From Candidatus Hydrothermarchaeota archaeon (lineage in GTDB: Archaea > CAYFZR01), in the NCBI GenBank assembly GCA_046760505.1, contig JBHIEG010000029.1:1-19161 (forward strand): DNA of 19,161 nt, written 5' to 3'. Both the position numbers and the translations under genes were made by a program. Positions within the stretch are counted from its first letter, which is position 1; every line of letters starts with the position of its first letter. Below the pieces are notes generated by a model that saw only the letters and a list, made by a program, of their open reading frames with translations, was not told the origin of the DNA and made no database searches. Shown here piece after piece: positions 14,531-18,509 of the stretch.

Positions 14531-15414
14531 TACCAACCTCTCACCTGGAGGAGCTGATCCTCGCTTAGAGTTTTTATATCCAATCCTCTCATAGCCTCTC
14601 CAAGGTTCTTTGAAACTTCTGCAAGGACGTCTGGTTTATCGTAGTTTGCGGTTGCTTCTACGATTGCTCTTGCTCTTGCCGGAGGATCCTGAGACTTGAA
14701 TATGCCCGAGCCAACGAAAACGCCATCTGCTCCTAACTGCATCATTAAAGCAGCGTCTGCAGGTGTGGCAATGCCTCCTGCCGCGAAATTAACCACTGGT
14801 AATCTTTGTAACTTAACCGTTTCTTCCAAAAGTTCCACAGGAGCAGCAATCTCTCTCGCATACTTTTCCAACTCAAGCCTATCCTTCGATTTTAAATCCC
14901 TTATAGTTCCCATTATGAGCCTCATATGCCTCACAGCTTCCATTACATTCCCAGTTCCTGCTTCCCCCTTTGTTCTTATCATCGCCGCGCCCTCGTTGAT
15001 CCTCCTCAGGGCTTCGCCCAAATCTCTTGCTCCGCAAACAAATGGCACGACAAATTTTCTTTTGTCTACATGGAATTTTTCGTCCGCTGGTGTTAGTACC
15101 TCGCTCTCATCTATCATATCTACGCCTAATGCTTGCAGGATCTGAGCCTCTACAAAATGCCCAATTCTGCATTTTGCCATCACTGGAATAGTCACTGCAT
15201 CCATAATCTCGATTATCTTGGCTGGATCTGCCATTCTTGCAACTCCGCCTGCCTCCCTTATATCTGCTGGAACCCTCTCTAGCGCCATTACAGCAACTGC
15301 TCCTGCGTCTTCGGCTATAATTGCCTGCTCAGCATTTGTAACATCCATTATCACTCCACCTTTCACCATCTTTGCGAATCCTCTCTTTAATCTCTCTGTT
15401 CCTTGGATTTTCAT
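14530..15414 (-). CDS. pdxS: Pyridoxal 5'-phosphate synthase lyase subunit PdxS
   Basis: 294 aa. GGVIMDV...[12 protein letters not shown]...GEAGTGNV...[31 protein letters not shown] is diagnostic of PdxS/SNZ. Confidence 0.95.
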
Positions 15415-15490: not shown

Positions 15491-15952
15491 TTACCCCTTC
15501 TTTTTGATCTTTGCAATATCTCCCAGAGTTAAAGATCTTGCCGATGATGCCACGCCCAAATGATTCTCTCTCATTTCCTGTCTGAGATTTATTTCCAACA
15601 ACCTTTCAAGTTTTTTTAGCAAATTTTCGTCTGGAATCATTTTTTCTGTCTCTATCCTTGCTATTACAGAAGTTTTTTCATTTAACCTCTTTGCTAAATC
15701 TTCCTGAGTCCATTCTCTTTTCTCTCTAGCCTTTTTTATGGTGGTTCCGTAATTTTCGATTAACTCGTATTCTTCCTTCGAAACTTTTCTTGGTTTTGGT
15801 TTTATCGTTCTTTTAAGGGGTTGTTTAAAAATTCTCATCGTGTTTTTTTCAGCGAACTTCTTGCATCTATTACAAACCTTCATCTCGGTCCTTTCAATGA
15901 AAACAACTCTGGCCTGTCCTTTTATTTCTGCTCCGCAGACCTCGCAATGCAA
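15491..15952 (-). CDS. mbf1: Archaeal multiprotein-bridging factor 1 (zinc-ribbon + HTH_XRE)
   Basis: N-terminal CEVCG...CNRC zinc ribbon with a C-terminal helix-turn-helix (WTQEDLAKRLNEKTSVIARIE). Confidence 0.8.
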   Translation of the reverse strand: MHCEVCGAEIKGQARVVFIERTEMKVCNRCKKFAEKNTMRIFKQPLKRTIKPKPRKVSKEEYELIENYGTTIKKAREKREWTQEDLAKRLNEKTSVIARIETEKMIPDENLLKKLERLLEINLRQEMRENHLGVASSARSLTLGDIAKIKKKG

Positions 15953-16078: not shown

Positions 16079-17317
16079 GTGAAGTCAAGCGAAACTCCAA
16101 ATTCGAAGGGTAAAGACCCGGATGATTTTTCAAGATATCTACTTAATAGAGTAAAACAACTTGAAACTGCATATAGCCAAGCAAAGGAAGACCACAGAAG
16201 ACTAGAGAATGAGAAAAAATATATCGAAAGCGAAAGAATGCGCATGGAAAGGGAGGTTCGCAGACTTAGGAGCGAGTTAGAAAGGCTCAAAAGCCTTCCT
16301 CTGGTTGTGGCAAATGTTATCGATGTGTTAAACGATGACAAAGCCATCGTAAAAAGCTCAACAGGTCCCAATTTTGTTGTAAATATTTCTCAATTCGTAG
16401 ACAAAAAGAAACTTGTCCCTGGGGCACGTGTCGCTCTCAACCAACAATCATACGCCATAATTGGAACATTACCAACTGAGAAAGATCCATTCGTTAGAGG
16501 AATGGAGATAGAAGAGCGACCACCCACAAGATACGAGGACATAGGTGGATTAAAAGCTCAGATAAGAGAAATAAGAGAAACTGTCGAGCTACCCCTAAAA
16601 AGACCAGATTTATTTGAAAAAATTGGTATTGAACCGCCTAAGGGCGTGATGCTATACGGTCCGCCAGGCACAGGTAAAACTCTCCTTGCAAGGGCAGTAG
16701 CACATGAAACTGATGCCACGTTCATCAAAATTATTGGTTCGGAATTGGTCCAAAAGTATATTGGAGAAGGCGCAAGGATGGTAAGAGAAATTATACAACT
16801 TGCAAGGGAAAAGGCTCCAAGTATAATATTCATAGACGAACTAGACGCAATAGGTGCAAAAAGACTTGAGAGCGCAACAAGTGGAGATAGGGAGGTTCAA
16901 AGGACGCTGATGCAGTTGCTCGCTGAGATGGACGGATTTGATCCTAGGGGAAATGTAAGGTTTGTTGGAGCAACAAACAGACCTGACATCTTAGATCCTG
17001 CTCTTCTTAGACCCGGTAGGTTTGACAGACTTATAGAGGTCCCGATGCCAAACTACGAGGCGAGGGTGGAGATATTTAAGATACACACAAAAAACATGAA
17101 TGCCGAAAACATCGACATAGAAAACCTTGCAAAAATCACCGACGGGGCTACGGGTGCAGATATAAAGGTCATATGCACGGAAGCAGGCATGTTCGCGATA
17201 AGAGATGAGAGAGATACCGTCTATATGGATGACTTCCACAAGGCCATTGAGAAAGTCTTAAAATTAAATGGTAGAATTGGAGAGGTAAAAGAATCCGTAG
17301 GAATAATGTTCGGATGA
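16079..17317 (+). CDS. pan: Proteasome-activating nucleotidase PAN (AAA+ ATPase)
   Basis: Coiled-coil N-terminus, Walker A GPPGTGKT, Walker B IIFIDELD, and the C-terminal HbYX-like tail. GTG 16079 lies 6 nt after GGAGGAG. The track's TTG 16064 overlaps the SD. Confidence 0.9.
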
Positions 17318-17327
17318 ATGCTCCTCC

Positions 17328-17377
17328 ATGATGAAATTTCTAAACTGATACCAGATGATGAATGATGGGCGAACTGA
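17328..17377 (+). ncRNA. C/D box sRNA (2'-O-methylation guide): C ATGATGA 17328-34, D' CTGA 17345-48, C' ATGATGA 17355-61, D CTGA 17374-77
   Basis: Two exact RUGAUGA boxes and two CUGA boxes. Guide spacers are 10 and 12 nt and the D'-C' gap is 6 nt, the canonical archaeal C/D architecture. It begins 10 nt after the pan stop. Confidence 0.7.
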
Positions 17378-17400
17378 TAACGCCATTTTTCGCCCTATTT
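17367..17400 (+). terminator. Hairpin GGGCGAA...TTCGCCC followed by a T-rich tail
   Basis: 7-bp stem (17367-73 / 17389-95) then tatttatt. The 5' arm is the D-guide of the sRNA. Confidence 0.35.
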
Positions 17401-17401
17401 A

Positions 17402-17674
17402 TTATCTGTGGTTATATTGTCTATTTCTTCTGTTGAGGTAGTATATTCTTTTGCTGATTCCTGCTTTCTTCCCGAACTTTTCGATATTCCTTCTTACAGT
17501 AGAGTAGTCTAGCGGATAGCCTTTGTTCTTGGTTCCGATGCCGACCCAAAGAGATGCATCCGGGTTTTCCTTTAGAGAGTGATTGTCCATCCAAGTGGCT
17601 AGGTAGGGAGAGTGTGAATTGTACCATGGTGCGGGAGACAAGACAGCTCCCTCAGTTCTAAATCCCTTTTTCAT
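17402..17674 (-). pseudogene. Remnant of a tyrosine recombinase/integrase (internal fragment without catalytic H-x-x-R / Tyr region)
   Basis: The 90-aa ORF ...LWVGIGTKNKGYPLDYSTVRRNIEKFGKKAGISKRI matches the conserved segment just upstream of the HxLRH box of XerC/D-like integrases. None of the three frames downstream encodes the catalytic motifs. The flanks are AT-rich and non-coding. Confidence 0.45.
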
Positions 17675-17819: not shown

Positions 17820-18509
17820 TCAAACCAGCTTCCCGAGCGCGTGTATTACATCGGGCTTGTGACACTTCGTACACTCTGGTATCGTGATCTCGATAGTTCC
17901 GTGGCAATTCTCGCAAGTGGGCCCTTTCTTTCCTTCTTTTTCTAATCTCTTTTTTGCATGAATATAGTGAACTGTTCCATGACACTTATAGCATAATTCG
18001 TTGCCTTTAGCTATTTCGTGATGTATTCTCAGCAGGTTGTCTGCGTGACATGCTTGACAAATTATCTTGTCCTCCTCTACGGTAGGTTTAACTATTTCAG
18101 GAGGACTTTGATGGCATATTGCACAAGCTCCACCATGTATCTTTGCAACATCTGCTCCATGACATCTAGCACATATGACTTCTCCCACCTTAACATGCAA
18201 TTCCGTTACATCACCATGGCATGTTGTGCAGTTCTCTCTTGCTGGTCTTTCGTGGATTTCGTGTATGGGTGGAGAGTGACATTTTACACATTCAGGTATC
18301 TCTACGCTAGGCAAAAAGCCATGACAATCTGAGCAGCCTATCCATACATCTGCATGAATGCTGTGAGCCACATCGTGACAACCATAACAAAAGGACTTCG
18401 TATAATTCTTCTTTTCAGGATTCTGCGTCTTCTCCTCTGAGATGGTGGGTATTGATACTGTAACGAGAAGGATCACTACAAAAACTAAACCTATGGACAA
18501 TCTCTTCAT
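17820..18509 (-). CDS. Secreted decaheme c-type cytochrome (10 CxxCH, likely all bis-His ligated)
   Basis: Signal peptide/anchor MKRLSIGLVFVVILLVTVSI, then ten CxxCH motifs plus 11 additional His in about 200 residues. Confidence 0.85.
   Translation of the reverse strand: MKRLSIGLVFVVILLVTVSIPTISEEKTQNPEKKNYTKSFCYGCHDVAHSIHADVWIGCSDCHGFLPSVEIPECVKCHSPPIHEIHERPARENCTTCHGDVTELHVKVGEVICARCHGADVAKIHGGACAICHQSPPEIVKPTVEEDKIICQACHADNLLRIHHEIAKGNELCYKCHGTVHYIHAKKRLEKEGKKGPTCENCHGTIEITIPECTKCHKPDVIHALGKLV

What the first reader, a model, noticed from the sequence alone, without database searches (positions are those of the whole stretch)
17328..17400. Textbook C/D box sRNA in the 3' region of pan, whose D-guide pairs with a hairpin arm just downstream
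An exact C (AUGAUGA), D' (CUGA), C' (AUGAUGA), D (CUGA) arrangement sits 10 nt after the pan stop. Spacings are 10, 6 and 12 nt. This suggests a methylation guide RNA processed from the pan transcript. Its 12-nt D-guide AUGAUGGGCGAA is complementary to TTCGCCC 12 nt downstream. The guide could therefore be sequestered in a terminator-like hairpin, or the RNA could act in cis. Its targets in this organism are unknown.
Basis: partly seen in the sequence, partly recalled or inferred. Interest (0 to 1): 0.7.

Follow-up and report, generated by a model that had tools for sequence, protein, structure and literature searches.

The report
Methylation guide RNA downstream of pan
This is an ordinary archaeal box C/D small RNA just after the proteasome-ATPase gene; its conserved guide points the methylation machinery at the ribosome's A-loop helix, and the hairpin beside it is real but found only in this organism.

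Summary
The motif is exactly as described, at 17328-17377 (+), and far beyond chance: no match in 4 Mb of random sequence scanned on both strands. The contig comes from a Candidatus Hydrothermarchaeota MAG.

The D guide AUGAUGGGCGAA is not an orphan. It forms 11 contiguous pairs with the 3' strand of 23S rRNA helix 92 (A-loop stem, UUCGCCCAUUA). Methylation would fall on the C equivalent to E. coli C2558. This is the site published for Methanopyrus sR64.

The same C'-guide-D module occurs in at least 120 metagenome loci. These include Rfam sR2- and sR1-type RNAs. In Methanobrevibacter and about 30 related contigs it lies directly after pan, as here.

A covariance model built from those homologues hits the window at 34 bits (E 4e-5). 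The D' guide (10 nt, AU-rich) has no convincing target.

The hairpin is real and larger than reported: 20 bp, 17352-17408, -24 kcal/mol, masking the C' box and the D guide. It is unique among 85 homologues. Those homologues have a covarying terminal stem that this copy lacks.

A T5 run lies at the junction of the hairpin loop and its 3' arm. A degraded integrase fragment abuts the hairpin.

Verdict: a new member of a known kind, with a local oddity of unknown significance.

The parts
16079..17317 (+). pan (proteasome-activating nucleotidase, 412 aa as called in public assemblies); host/upstream gene of the sRNA
   Evidence: Pfam AAA + Prot_ATP_ID_OB_C + AAA_lid_3. 100% identical to P0001, named 'proteasome-activating nucleotidase [Candidatus Hydrothermarchaeota archaeon]'. 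Gene aa.
17328..17334 (+). box C (AUGAUGA)
   Evidence: Sequence. Aligned to the C box of model R1 and of Rfam sR3/sR2.
17335..17344 (+). D' guide spacer, 10 nt (AAUUUCUAAA); orphan
   Evidence: No 8-mer of its complement occurs in 16S/23S of seven archaea. The best candidate duplex is only -4.3 kcal/mol. It is the only 10-nt spacer among 88 copies.
17345..17348 (+). box D' (CUGA)
17355..17361 (+). box C' (AUGAUGA)
17362..17373 (+). D guide (AUGAUGGGCGAA), complementary to 23S rRNA helix 92 3' strand; N+5 = C2558 (E. coli numbering)
   Evidence: 11 contiguous pairs with UUCGCCCAUUA of M. maripaludis and M. kandleri 23S. Duplex energy -17.1 kcal/mol. Mka sR64, with the same guide core, is assigned to 23S C2832 = E. 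coli C2558. The guide is conserved in at least 120 loci.
17374..17377 (+). box D (CUGA)
17386..17390 (+). T5 run, probable transcription terminator of pan-sRNA; overlaps the first 2 nt of the hairpin 3' arm
   Evidence: Sequence. In 28 of 32 pan-linked copies (the window included) the first T5+ run starts 3-17 nt after box D. In the window it starts at 8 nt.
17352..17373 (+). 5' arm of the long hairpin (covers the C' box and D guide)
   Evidence: RNAfold
17389..17408 (+). 3' arm of the long hairpin (TTCGCCCTATTTATTATCTG); overlaps the last codons and stop of the minus-strand ORF
   Evidence: RNAfold. The exact 7-mer complement of the guide core is unique among 85 homologues.
17402..17674 (-). 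90-aa ORF: internal remnant of a tyrosine recombinase (integrase) gene, convergent on the sRNA
   Evidence: phmmer gives 222 hits, aligning to residues ~196-260 of ~400-aa proteins. Those proteins carry Pfam Phage_integrase. tblastn maps the match to 17611-17420, E 2e-18, with the catalytic motif degraded.

Best explanation
A genuine archaeal box C/D sRNA gene of about 50-55 nt (17328-17377 plus a few flanking nt) lies 10 nt after pan in a Hydrothermarchaeota genome.

Inferred mechanism: it is transcribed with pan and the transcript ends at the T5 run 8 nt after box D. L7Ae, Nop5 and fibrillarin assemble on the C/D and C'/D' motifs and nucleases trim the flanks. The D guide pairs with the 3' strand of 23S rRNA helix 92 (the stem of the A loop). 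Fibrillarin then 2'-O-methylates the C paired with the fifth guide nucleotide upstream of box D, which is E. coli C2558.

This RNA is the local representative of a widespread archaeal guide. Relatives are Methanopyrus sR64, M. maripaludis sR106 (Rfam sR2-type), Rfam sR1-type RNAs and an unannotated pan-linked sRNA of Methanobacteriales. The 10-nt D' guide is most likely an orphan.

The downstream inverted repeat is a lineage-specific addition. It can form only in transcripts that read through the T5 run. It probably arose with the rearrangement that left an integrase remnant next to the sRNA and removed the usual terminal stem.

Shown here: box architecture, guide-target complementarity to real archaeal 23S sequences, conservation of the guide module, pan synteny, and hairpin stability. 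Inferred: expression, processing, sRNP assembly, methylation, and the identity of the host's own 23S sequence.
For: The four-box motif is unique in the window, with 0 matches in 4 Mb of random sequence scanned on both strands.

The only Rfam similarities anywhere in the window are archaeal C/D sRNA families at this locus.

The D guide pairs with UGUUCGCCCAUUAAAG of M. maripaludis and M. kandleri 23S, from the alignment in Additional file 2 of PMC4644070. The duplex is -17.1 kcal/mol.

Mka sR64 (..GAUGAUGA AUAGUGGGCGAG CGGA) is assigned to 23S C2832, two positions after C2830 = E. coli C2556. Helices 90-93 are described as methylation hotspots.

The pattern TGATGANNNRTGGGCGARCTGA gave at least 120 metagenome loci, and 101 of 121 matches have the full C-D'-C'-D architecture. 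Methanococcales-like copies reach the Rfam sR2 gathering score. A copy carrying the guide in the first half reaches the sR1 gathering score.

Model R1, built from 41 homologues without the window, hits 17328-17377 at 34 bits, E 3.8e-5.

Pan-sRNA synteny holds in Methanobrevibacter genomes L002-L005 and about 27 metagenome loci. The gap from pan stop to C box is mostly 15-46 nt (10 nt here). The T5+ run usually starts 3-17 nt after box D (8 nt here).

The literature reports that most archaeal C/D sRNA genes lack their own promoters, lie within 25 nt of or overlap ORFs, and are cut out of longer transcripts. Guides are 10-12 nt and orphan guides are common.
Against: There is no terminal stem: at most 1 pair, against 4 bp or more in 80 of 88 copies. 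In the family that stem covaries strongly (86% paired, 0 of 500 shuffles reach it). A review lists it as a feature needed for L7Ae binding.

The 10-nt C-D' spacer is the shortest of 88 copies.

A stable alternative fold masks C' and the D guide.

The nearest PAN relatives (75-76% identity, L084 and L085) have no sRNA after pan. Conservation within the lineage is therefore untested. The only other copies are 99.8% or more identical strains.

The host's own 23S rRNA, its sRNP protein genes and any expression data were not available.
Confidence: 0.8

Rival explanations
1. A decaying or inactive copy. The sRNA lost its terminal stem and part of its D' guide when the downstream DNA was rearranged, as the integrase remnant suggests. 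It no longer assembles into an active sRNP.
For: No terminal stem, the shortest D' spacer of 88 copies, and a 6-nt D'-C' loop where most copies have 3-4 nt. A competing hairpin of -24 kcal/mol. A degraded integrase fragment abuts the locus. The sRNA is absent after pan in the closest PAN relatives.
Against: All four boxes are perfect consensus. The 12-nt D guide is identical to that of many homologues (for example L090, L101, L103). It pairs better with 23S than most homologues do (A-U instead of G-U next to box D). Only the unconstrained parts have diverged: flanks, loop and D' guide. Flanking sequence can be changed without affecting maturation in S. acidocaldarius, as summarised in PMC7994747.
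Confidence: 0.1
2. The hairpin is a selected cis element. In pan 3'-UTR or read-through precursors it masks the C' box and the A-loop guide. sRNP assembly and A-loop methylation would then depend on temperature or on termination efficiency. Alternatively it stabilises the pan mRNA 3' end.
For: The hairpin is far more stable than controls: 2 of 2000 and 16 of 2732. Three G-U pairs make it specific to the + strand (-24.1 against -16.1 kcal/mol on the minus strand). It is predicted to melt between 80 and 90 C. It has the strongest guide-to-downstream interaction of 85 homologues and the only exact 7-mer complement.
Against: It is not conserved in any homologue, and covariation cannot be tested because only identical strains are available. 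The T5 run overlaps the start of the 3' arm, so terminated transcripts lack that arm. About -10 kcal/mol of the interaction arises generically, because U-rich tails pair with AUGAUGAAUGAUG in AT-rich homologues. With a 15-nt loop it is not a terminator-type stem-loop.
Confidence: 0.1
3. The inverted repeat is a recombination scar. It would be a hybrid att-like site or deletion junction left by a mobile element whose integrase remnant lies next to it, with no RNA-level role.
For: The integrase remnant's homology ends at 17420, 12 nt from the end of the arm. The 3' flank, and hence the terminal stem, differs from all homologues. Gene order downstream of pan differs from the nearest relatives.
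Against: There is no second copy of the sRNA 3' part or any direct repeat in the contig. No integrase lies next to the sRNA in about 120 homologous loci. The arms are separated by 15 nt, not the 6-8 nt overlap typical of tyrosine-recombinase core sites (general knowledge). The fragment is internal to the catalytic domain, unlike the split products of SSV-type integrases. sRNA genes are not among the reported archaeal att sites.
Confidence: 0.1
4. A chance occurrence of box-like motifs in an AT-rich intergenic spacer.
For: None beyond the low complexity of AUGAUGA repeats.
Against: 0 matches in 4 Mb of random sequence scanned on both strands. The guide is conserved in at least 120 loci. The CM hit has E 3.8e-5.
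Confidence: 0.01

Closest known systems
Methanopyrus kandleri sR64 (Dennis et al. 2015, PMC4644070)
   Same: It has the same second half: C' GAUGAUGA plus guide AUAGUGGGCGAG, the same core and the same register. The published target is 23S C2832, equivalent to E. coli C2558 in the helix 92 stem.
   Different: Its D box is CGGA and its D' guide GGCGGUUGCUGG has its own 23S target (C2807). Its C box is AUGACGA, its D'-C' linker is longer and its flanks are GC-rich. Linkage to pan is not known.
Methanococcus maripaludis sR106 / Rfam RF01139 (sR2)
   Same: The D guide AAGAUGGGCGAG + CUGA has the same core and register. Methanococcales-like metagenome copies (L088, L134) reach the sR2 gathering score. 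The window aligns end to end to sR2.
   Different: The window scores only 22 bits against a gathering score of 42. The D' guide differs: (A/C/U)CGGAGUAGCUU is complementary to 23S AAGCUACUCCG. sR2-type copies have a terminal stem (GGUG/CACC) and are not next to pan in the loci seen. The paper lists sR106 targets as 'not predicted'.
Unannotated pan-linked sRNA of Methanobrevibacter / Methanobacteriales-like contigs (L002-L005 and about 27 metagenome loci)
   Same: The genomic position is the same: same strand, C box mostly 15-46 nt after the pan stop, and a T-run shortly after box D in nearly all copies. The boxes are identical and the D guide is identical or differs by A/G at its last position.
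   Different: The D' guide is ACCCUAUGAGCU (12 nt) and the D'-C' loop is 3-4 nt. There is a 5-7 bp terminal stem (AGCC/GGCU) and no complement of the guide downstream. No Rfam family reaches the gathering score for it.
Rfam RF01152 (sR1)-type sRNAs (e.g. L099)
   Same: The same guide, CUGAUGGGCGAA + CUGA. The window's C'-guide-D half aligns to the first half of sR1 at 21.7 bits.
   Different: In sR1-type RNAs the guide sits between C and D' (the first half) and a different guide occupies the second half.

Membership tests
Archaeal box C/D sRNA (2'-O-methylation guide) | Box C (RUGAUGA) near the 5' end and box D (CUGA) near the 3' end | tested here: met
   AUGAUGA at 17328-17334 and CUGA at 17374-17377
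Archaeal box C/D sRNA (2'-O-methylation guide) | Internal D' and C' boxes forming a K-loop, separated by a short linker | tested here: met
   CUGA at 17345-17348, 6-nt linker, AUGAUGA at 17355-17361
Archaeal box C/D sRNA (2'-O-methylation guide) | Guide spacers of 10-12 nt between C and D' and between C' and D | tested here: met
   10 and 12 nt; the range is given in PMC7994747. The 10-nt spacer is the shortest of 88 family copies.
Archaeal box C/D sRNA (2'-O-methylation guide) | Terminal stem that juxtaposes boxes C and D (C-stem of the K-turn) | tested here: not met
   At most 1 pair between 17321-17326 and 17378-17383. The stem is present and covaries in homologues.
Archaeal box C/D sRNA (2'-O-methylation guide) | A guide complementary to rRNA or tRNA, with the target nucleotide opposite the fifth position upstream of D/D' | tested here: met
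   D guide: 11 contiguous pairs with helix 92 of M. maripaludis and M. kandleri 23S, N+5 = C2558. This was tested on other archaea's rRNA, not the host's. The D' guide has no target.
Archaeal box C/D sRNA (2'-O-methylation guide) | Target sequence present in the host's own rRNA | not testable with these tools
Archaeal box C/D sRNA (2'-O-methylation guide) | Expressed as a discrete small RNA bound by L7Ae/Nop5/fibrillarin, and the target is methylated | not testable with these tools
   No expression or modification data. The sRNP genes are not in the window.
Rfam RF01139 (sR2), RF01152 (sR1), RF01133 (sR3) | Score at or above the family's gathering threshold | tested here: not met
   22.0, 21.7 and 22.4 bits against thresholds of 42, 45 and 41
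A-loop (C2558) guide sRNA family defined here (model R1) | Significant match to a covariance model built from 41 homologues | tested here: met
   34 bits, E 3.8e-5, model positions 8-56 of 63
A-loop (C2558) guide sRNA family defined here (model R1) | Position directly 3' of pan on the same strand, followed by a T-run (Methanobacteriales-type arrangement) | tested here: met
   10-nt gap to the pan stop and T5 8 nt after box D. 31 other pan-linked copies exist.
Intrinsic-terminator-like hairpin | GC-rich stem, loop of 3-8 nt, followed directly by a T-run | tested here: not met
   Not reported by the terminator scan. The loop is 15 nt. The T5 run lies at the loop/3'-arm junction, not after the stem.
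Integration (att) site of a tyrosine recombinase element | Integrase gene adjacent, plus a second att copy (direct repeat) bounding an element | tested here: inconclusive
   An integrase remnant is adjacent. No repeat of the sRNA 3' part occurs in the contig, but the contig ends 1.7 kb further on.

The most novel reading that the evidence does not exclude
The 20-bp inverted repeat is a selected cis-acting mask. In pan transcripts that read through the T5 run it sequesters the C' box and the A-loop guide. Production of the active sRNP, and thus 2'-O-methylation of the helix 92 stem next to the ribosomal A loop, would then be conditional. Conditions could be temperature, since the helix is predicted to melt at about 80-90 C, or termination efficiency. 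[quoted passage not shown] That would make a C/D sRNA gene an integration target analogous to tRNA genes.
Probability: 0.1. Interest if true: 0.6.

Novelty: new member of a known kind. Interest (0 to 1): 0.27.

Why it matters
The finding adds a confidently assigned methylation guide RNA to an uncultured archaeal phylum that has no sRNA annotation. No paper found in the library search links Hydrothermarchaeota with C/D sRNAs.

One guide, aimed at the stem of the ribosomal A loop (E. coli C2558), is shared by very different archaea. Its linkage to pan recurs in Methanobacteriales.

Rfam does not recognise this copy or the Methanobrevibacter copy at gathering score. Annotation pipelines will therefore miss them, and model R1 or the guide pattern could fill that gap.

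The missing terminal stem and the guide-masking hairpin form a small natural experiment on what an archaeal sRNA needs for maturation. Nothing here changes current understanding.

Tried and rejected
- **Rfam at gathering thresholds.** Nothing in the window.
- **Exact-protein look-up with the TTG-start PAN.** Not on record. The 412-aa form worked.
- **Genome-contig scan with PAN.** It was saturated by generic AAA patterns. The best hits were only 65% identical and no close relative was found.
- **Closest PAN relatives (L084, L085) and Archaeoglobus/L208.** No sRNA after pan. Synteny could not be followed inside the lineage.
- **Same-strain contigs.** They are 99.8-99.97% identical and therefore uninformative.
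- **Target search for the D' guide.** No 8-mer match in seven archaeal 16S/23S sequences. No enrichment in the window. A 7-nt match to E. coli-type GGGUUUAGAAC (G2588) was considered. It was dropped because the archaeal sequences available read UUUAGACC and the duplex is only -3 to -4 kcal/mol.
- **Hansen et al. 2002 (A-loop modifications).** Not held in the library.
- **Terminator reading of the hairpin.** Not supported by the scan.
- **Integration-site hypothesis.** No att repeat and no integrase near other copies.
- **Word-index homologue search for the 90-aa ORF.** It found only itself. The full HMMER search was needed.
- **Retrieving the host 23S through spurious ORFs.** Judged too indirect and not attempted.

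Full report
**Observation.**
- The pan ORF ends with TGA at 17315-17317.
- After 10 nt come box C AUGAUGA (17328-17334), a 10-nt spacer, D' CUGA (17345-17348) and the 6-nt UACCAG.
- Then come C' AUGAUGA (17355-17361), the 12-nt AUGAUGGGCGAA (17362-17373) and D CUGA (17374-17377).
- UUCGCCC follows at 17389-17395.

A four-box regular expression hits only here on either strand of the window. It hits nowhere in 4 Mb of first-order random sequence scanned on both strands. Rfam gives nothing at gathering scores. In E-value mode the only similarities in the whole window are archaeal C/D sRNA families at this locus, at 18-22 bits (sR3, sR2, sR1, sR18, sR5).

**Source.** The 412-aa PAN is 100% identical to a protein that NCBI names from a Candidatus Hydrothermarchaeota MAG, and its longest contig is 19161 nt, the length of this window. 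Three Logan contigs of the same strain are 99.8-99.97% identical and identical across the sRNA region. The next PAN relatives are 75-76% identical. They have other genes and no C/D motif after pan. Archaeoglobus and another lineage also lack it.

**Target.** The D guide is complementary to the 3' strand of 23S rRNA helix 92, the stem that closes the A loop.
- In the 23S alignment supplied with Dennis et al. 2015 (PMC4644070), M. maripaludis and M. kandleri read GGGG(C/U)UGUUCGCCCAUUAAAGGGG.
- Counting from box D, the guide pairs A-U, A-U, G-C, C-G, G-C, G-C, G-C, U-A, A-U, G-U, U-A, then an A/A mismatch. That is 11 contiguous pairs, -17.1 kcal/mol.
- The fifth pair puts the methyl group on the first C of CCC.
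- The paper equates alignment position C2830 with E. coli C2556. It assigns M. kandleri sR64, whose second half is GAUGAUGA-AUAGUGGGCGAG-CGGA, to 23S C2832, that is E. coli C2558. This is the same site in the same register.
- M. maripaludis sR106 carries AAGAUGGGCGAG-CUGA.
- Helices 90-93 are described as conserved methylation hotspots.
- The host's own 23S could not be obtained, so this step rests on the strong conservation of the site.

**Family.** Of 121 matches, 101 have a complete C-D'-C'-D architecture upstream. In about ten the same guide sits instead in the first half, followed by a second C'/D unit.
- D' guides differ between groups: ACCCUAUGAGCU, (C/U)CGGAGUAGCUU, NNNCUAGAACCNG, UGCGAACAACCA and others.
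- The D guide and the boxes are invariant.
- Methanococcales-like copies reach the gathering score of Rfam sR2. A first-half copy reaches that of sR1. The Methanobrevibacter and GC-rich copies match no Rfam family.
- A covariance model built from 41 homologues, without the window, hits 17328-17377 at 34 bits, E 3.8e-5. It hits nothing else in 153 kb of pan loci.

**Synteny.** In four Methanobrevibacter genomes and about 27 metagenome contigs (GC 24-38%, PAN 57-69% identical) the sRNA lies on the same strand directly after pan.
- The gap from pan stop to box C is mostly 15-46 nt, against 10 nt here.
- A run of five or more T starts 3-17 nt after box D in 28 of the 32 linked copies (the window included), against 8 nt here.
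- The arrangement pan, short gap, sRNA, T-run is therefore shared. It fits the published picture that most archaeal C/D sRNA genes have no promoter of their own, lie within 25 nt of or overlap ORFs, and are cut out of longer transcripts.
- Co-transcription here is inferred, not shown. A weak A/T-rich element inside the pan 3' end cannot be excluded as a promoter.

**What is unusual.**
1. The copy has no terminal stem. In the family the six pairs flanking the boxes are 86% paired with abundant double changes; 0 of 500 shuffles reach that, and slid controls give 21-46%. Of 88 copies, 80 have 4 bp or more, and the window has at most 1.
2. Its C-D' spacer is the only 10-nt one. The D' guide has no credible target. 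Orphan guides are common.
3. Positions 17352-17373 pair with 17389-17408 (20 bp, three of them G-U, with a 2-nt bulge), giving -24.1 kcal/mol and z = -4.8.
   - With the sRNA fixed, 2 of 2000 shuffled tails and 16 of 2732 other contig pieces do as well.
   - The minus strand folds to only -16.1 kcal/mol, and the helix is predicted to persist to about 80 C.
   - Among 85 homologues the window has the strongest interaction with its tail (-16 kcal/mol against -11 or weaker). It is the only copy with an exact 7-mer complement of the guide core.
   - About -10 kcal/mol of the interaction is generic, because U-rich tails pair with AUGAUGAAUGAUG.
   - The T5 run (17386-17390) overlaps the start of the 3' arm, so terminated transcripts would lack that arm.
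   - With a 15-nt loop the structure is not terminator-like.

**Neighbour.** The convergent 90-aa ORF (17402-17674) is an internal fragment of a tyrosine recombinase. Its residues 21-85 align to positions ~196-260 of ~400-aa Phage_integrase proteins. tblastn places the match at 17611-17420, with the HxxR-H motif degraded. The homology ends 12 nt from the hairpin arm. This suggests that the DNA to the right of the sRNA was rearranged, which would explain the lost terminal stem and the changed gene order. No att-like repeat is present. No other copy of the sRNA has an integrase beside it. sRNA genes are not among the reported archaeal integration targets.

**Conclusion.** This is a real box C/D methylation guide and a new member of a known, widely distributed guide family aimed at the A-loop stem of 23S rRNA. 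It sits in a pan-linked position shared with Methanobacteriales. The hairpin is genuine and statistically unusual but lineage-specific. Its function, if it has one, is open.

Noticed in passing
window 17402-17674 (-): The 90-aa 'hypothetical protein' is an internal remnant (about 65 aa) of a ~400-aa tyrosine recombinase with a degraded catalytic motif. Its homology ends at 17420, 12 nt from the hairpin arm.
   Followed up: yes
L099, L111, L131, L133, L158, L161, L172, L186, L191, L202 (match positions): The same A-loop guide (NUGAUGGGCGAA + CUGA) sits between C and D' (the first half) and is followed by a second C'/D unit with another guide. L099 reaches the gathering score of Rfam sR1. The guide has therefore changed halves between lineages.
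   Followed up: partly
L097 2081-2129, L122, L146, L168, L169, L196: In these copies the D' guide UGCGAACAACCA (and variants) is complementary to GGUUGUUCGC of the A loop itself, as read in M. kandleri 23S. By the N+5 rule it would target U2552, giving a dual guide for U2552 and C2558 only 6 nt apart.
   Followed up: partly
PMC4644070 Additional file 1 (M. maripaludis sR106): sR106 is listed with no predicted target, although its D guide AAGAUGGGCGAG fits the same helix 92 site as Mka sR64 with 8 Watson-Crick and 2 G-U pairs.
   Followed up: partly
alignment A2, guide position 3 (window 17364): The guide nucleotide opposite the second U of CCCAUUA is G in nearly all copies, a conserved G-U wobble where an A would pair better. 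The reason is unknown.
   Followed up: no
window 15491-15952 (-); L084, L085, L206, L208: A 153-159-aa HTH_3 protein gene transcribed divergently from pan is conserved in Hydrothermarchaeota, Archaeoglobus, Methanobacteriales-like and other archaeal loci. Its linkage to pan is much more widespread than that of the sRNA.
   Followed up: partly
L002 6918-7122: In a Methanobrevibacter genome the 16S rRNA gene begins about 2.7 kb downstream of the pan-sRNA unit. In L086 an archaeal RNase P RNA lies about 900 nt from the sRNA.
   Followed up: no
L196, matches at positions 2675 and 2784 of the reverse strand: There are two copies of the C'-guide-D module 109 nt apart. The second lacks a recognisable C/D' half, so it is a partial duplication.
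   Followed up: no
window 17820-18509 (-): A 229-aa protein with several CXXCH motifs (Cytochrom_c3_2, Cytochrome_C7, Paired_CXXCH): a multihaem cytochrome c in an archaeal contig. One strain variant (L082) carries a 6-nt insertion in it.
   Followed up: no
window 15000-15020 (-), inside the SOR/SNZ-family (pdxS-like) gene: The sequence TGGGCGAAGCCCTGAGGAGGA resembles the guide core followed by CTGA and the complement of the sRNA's 5' flank. It lies in a conserved coding region and is judged coincidental.
   Followed up: no
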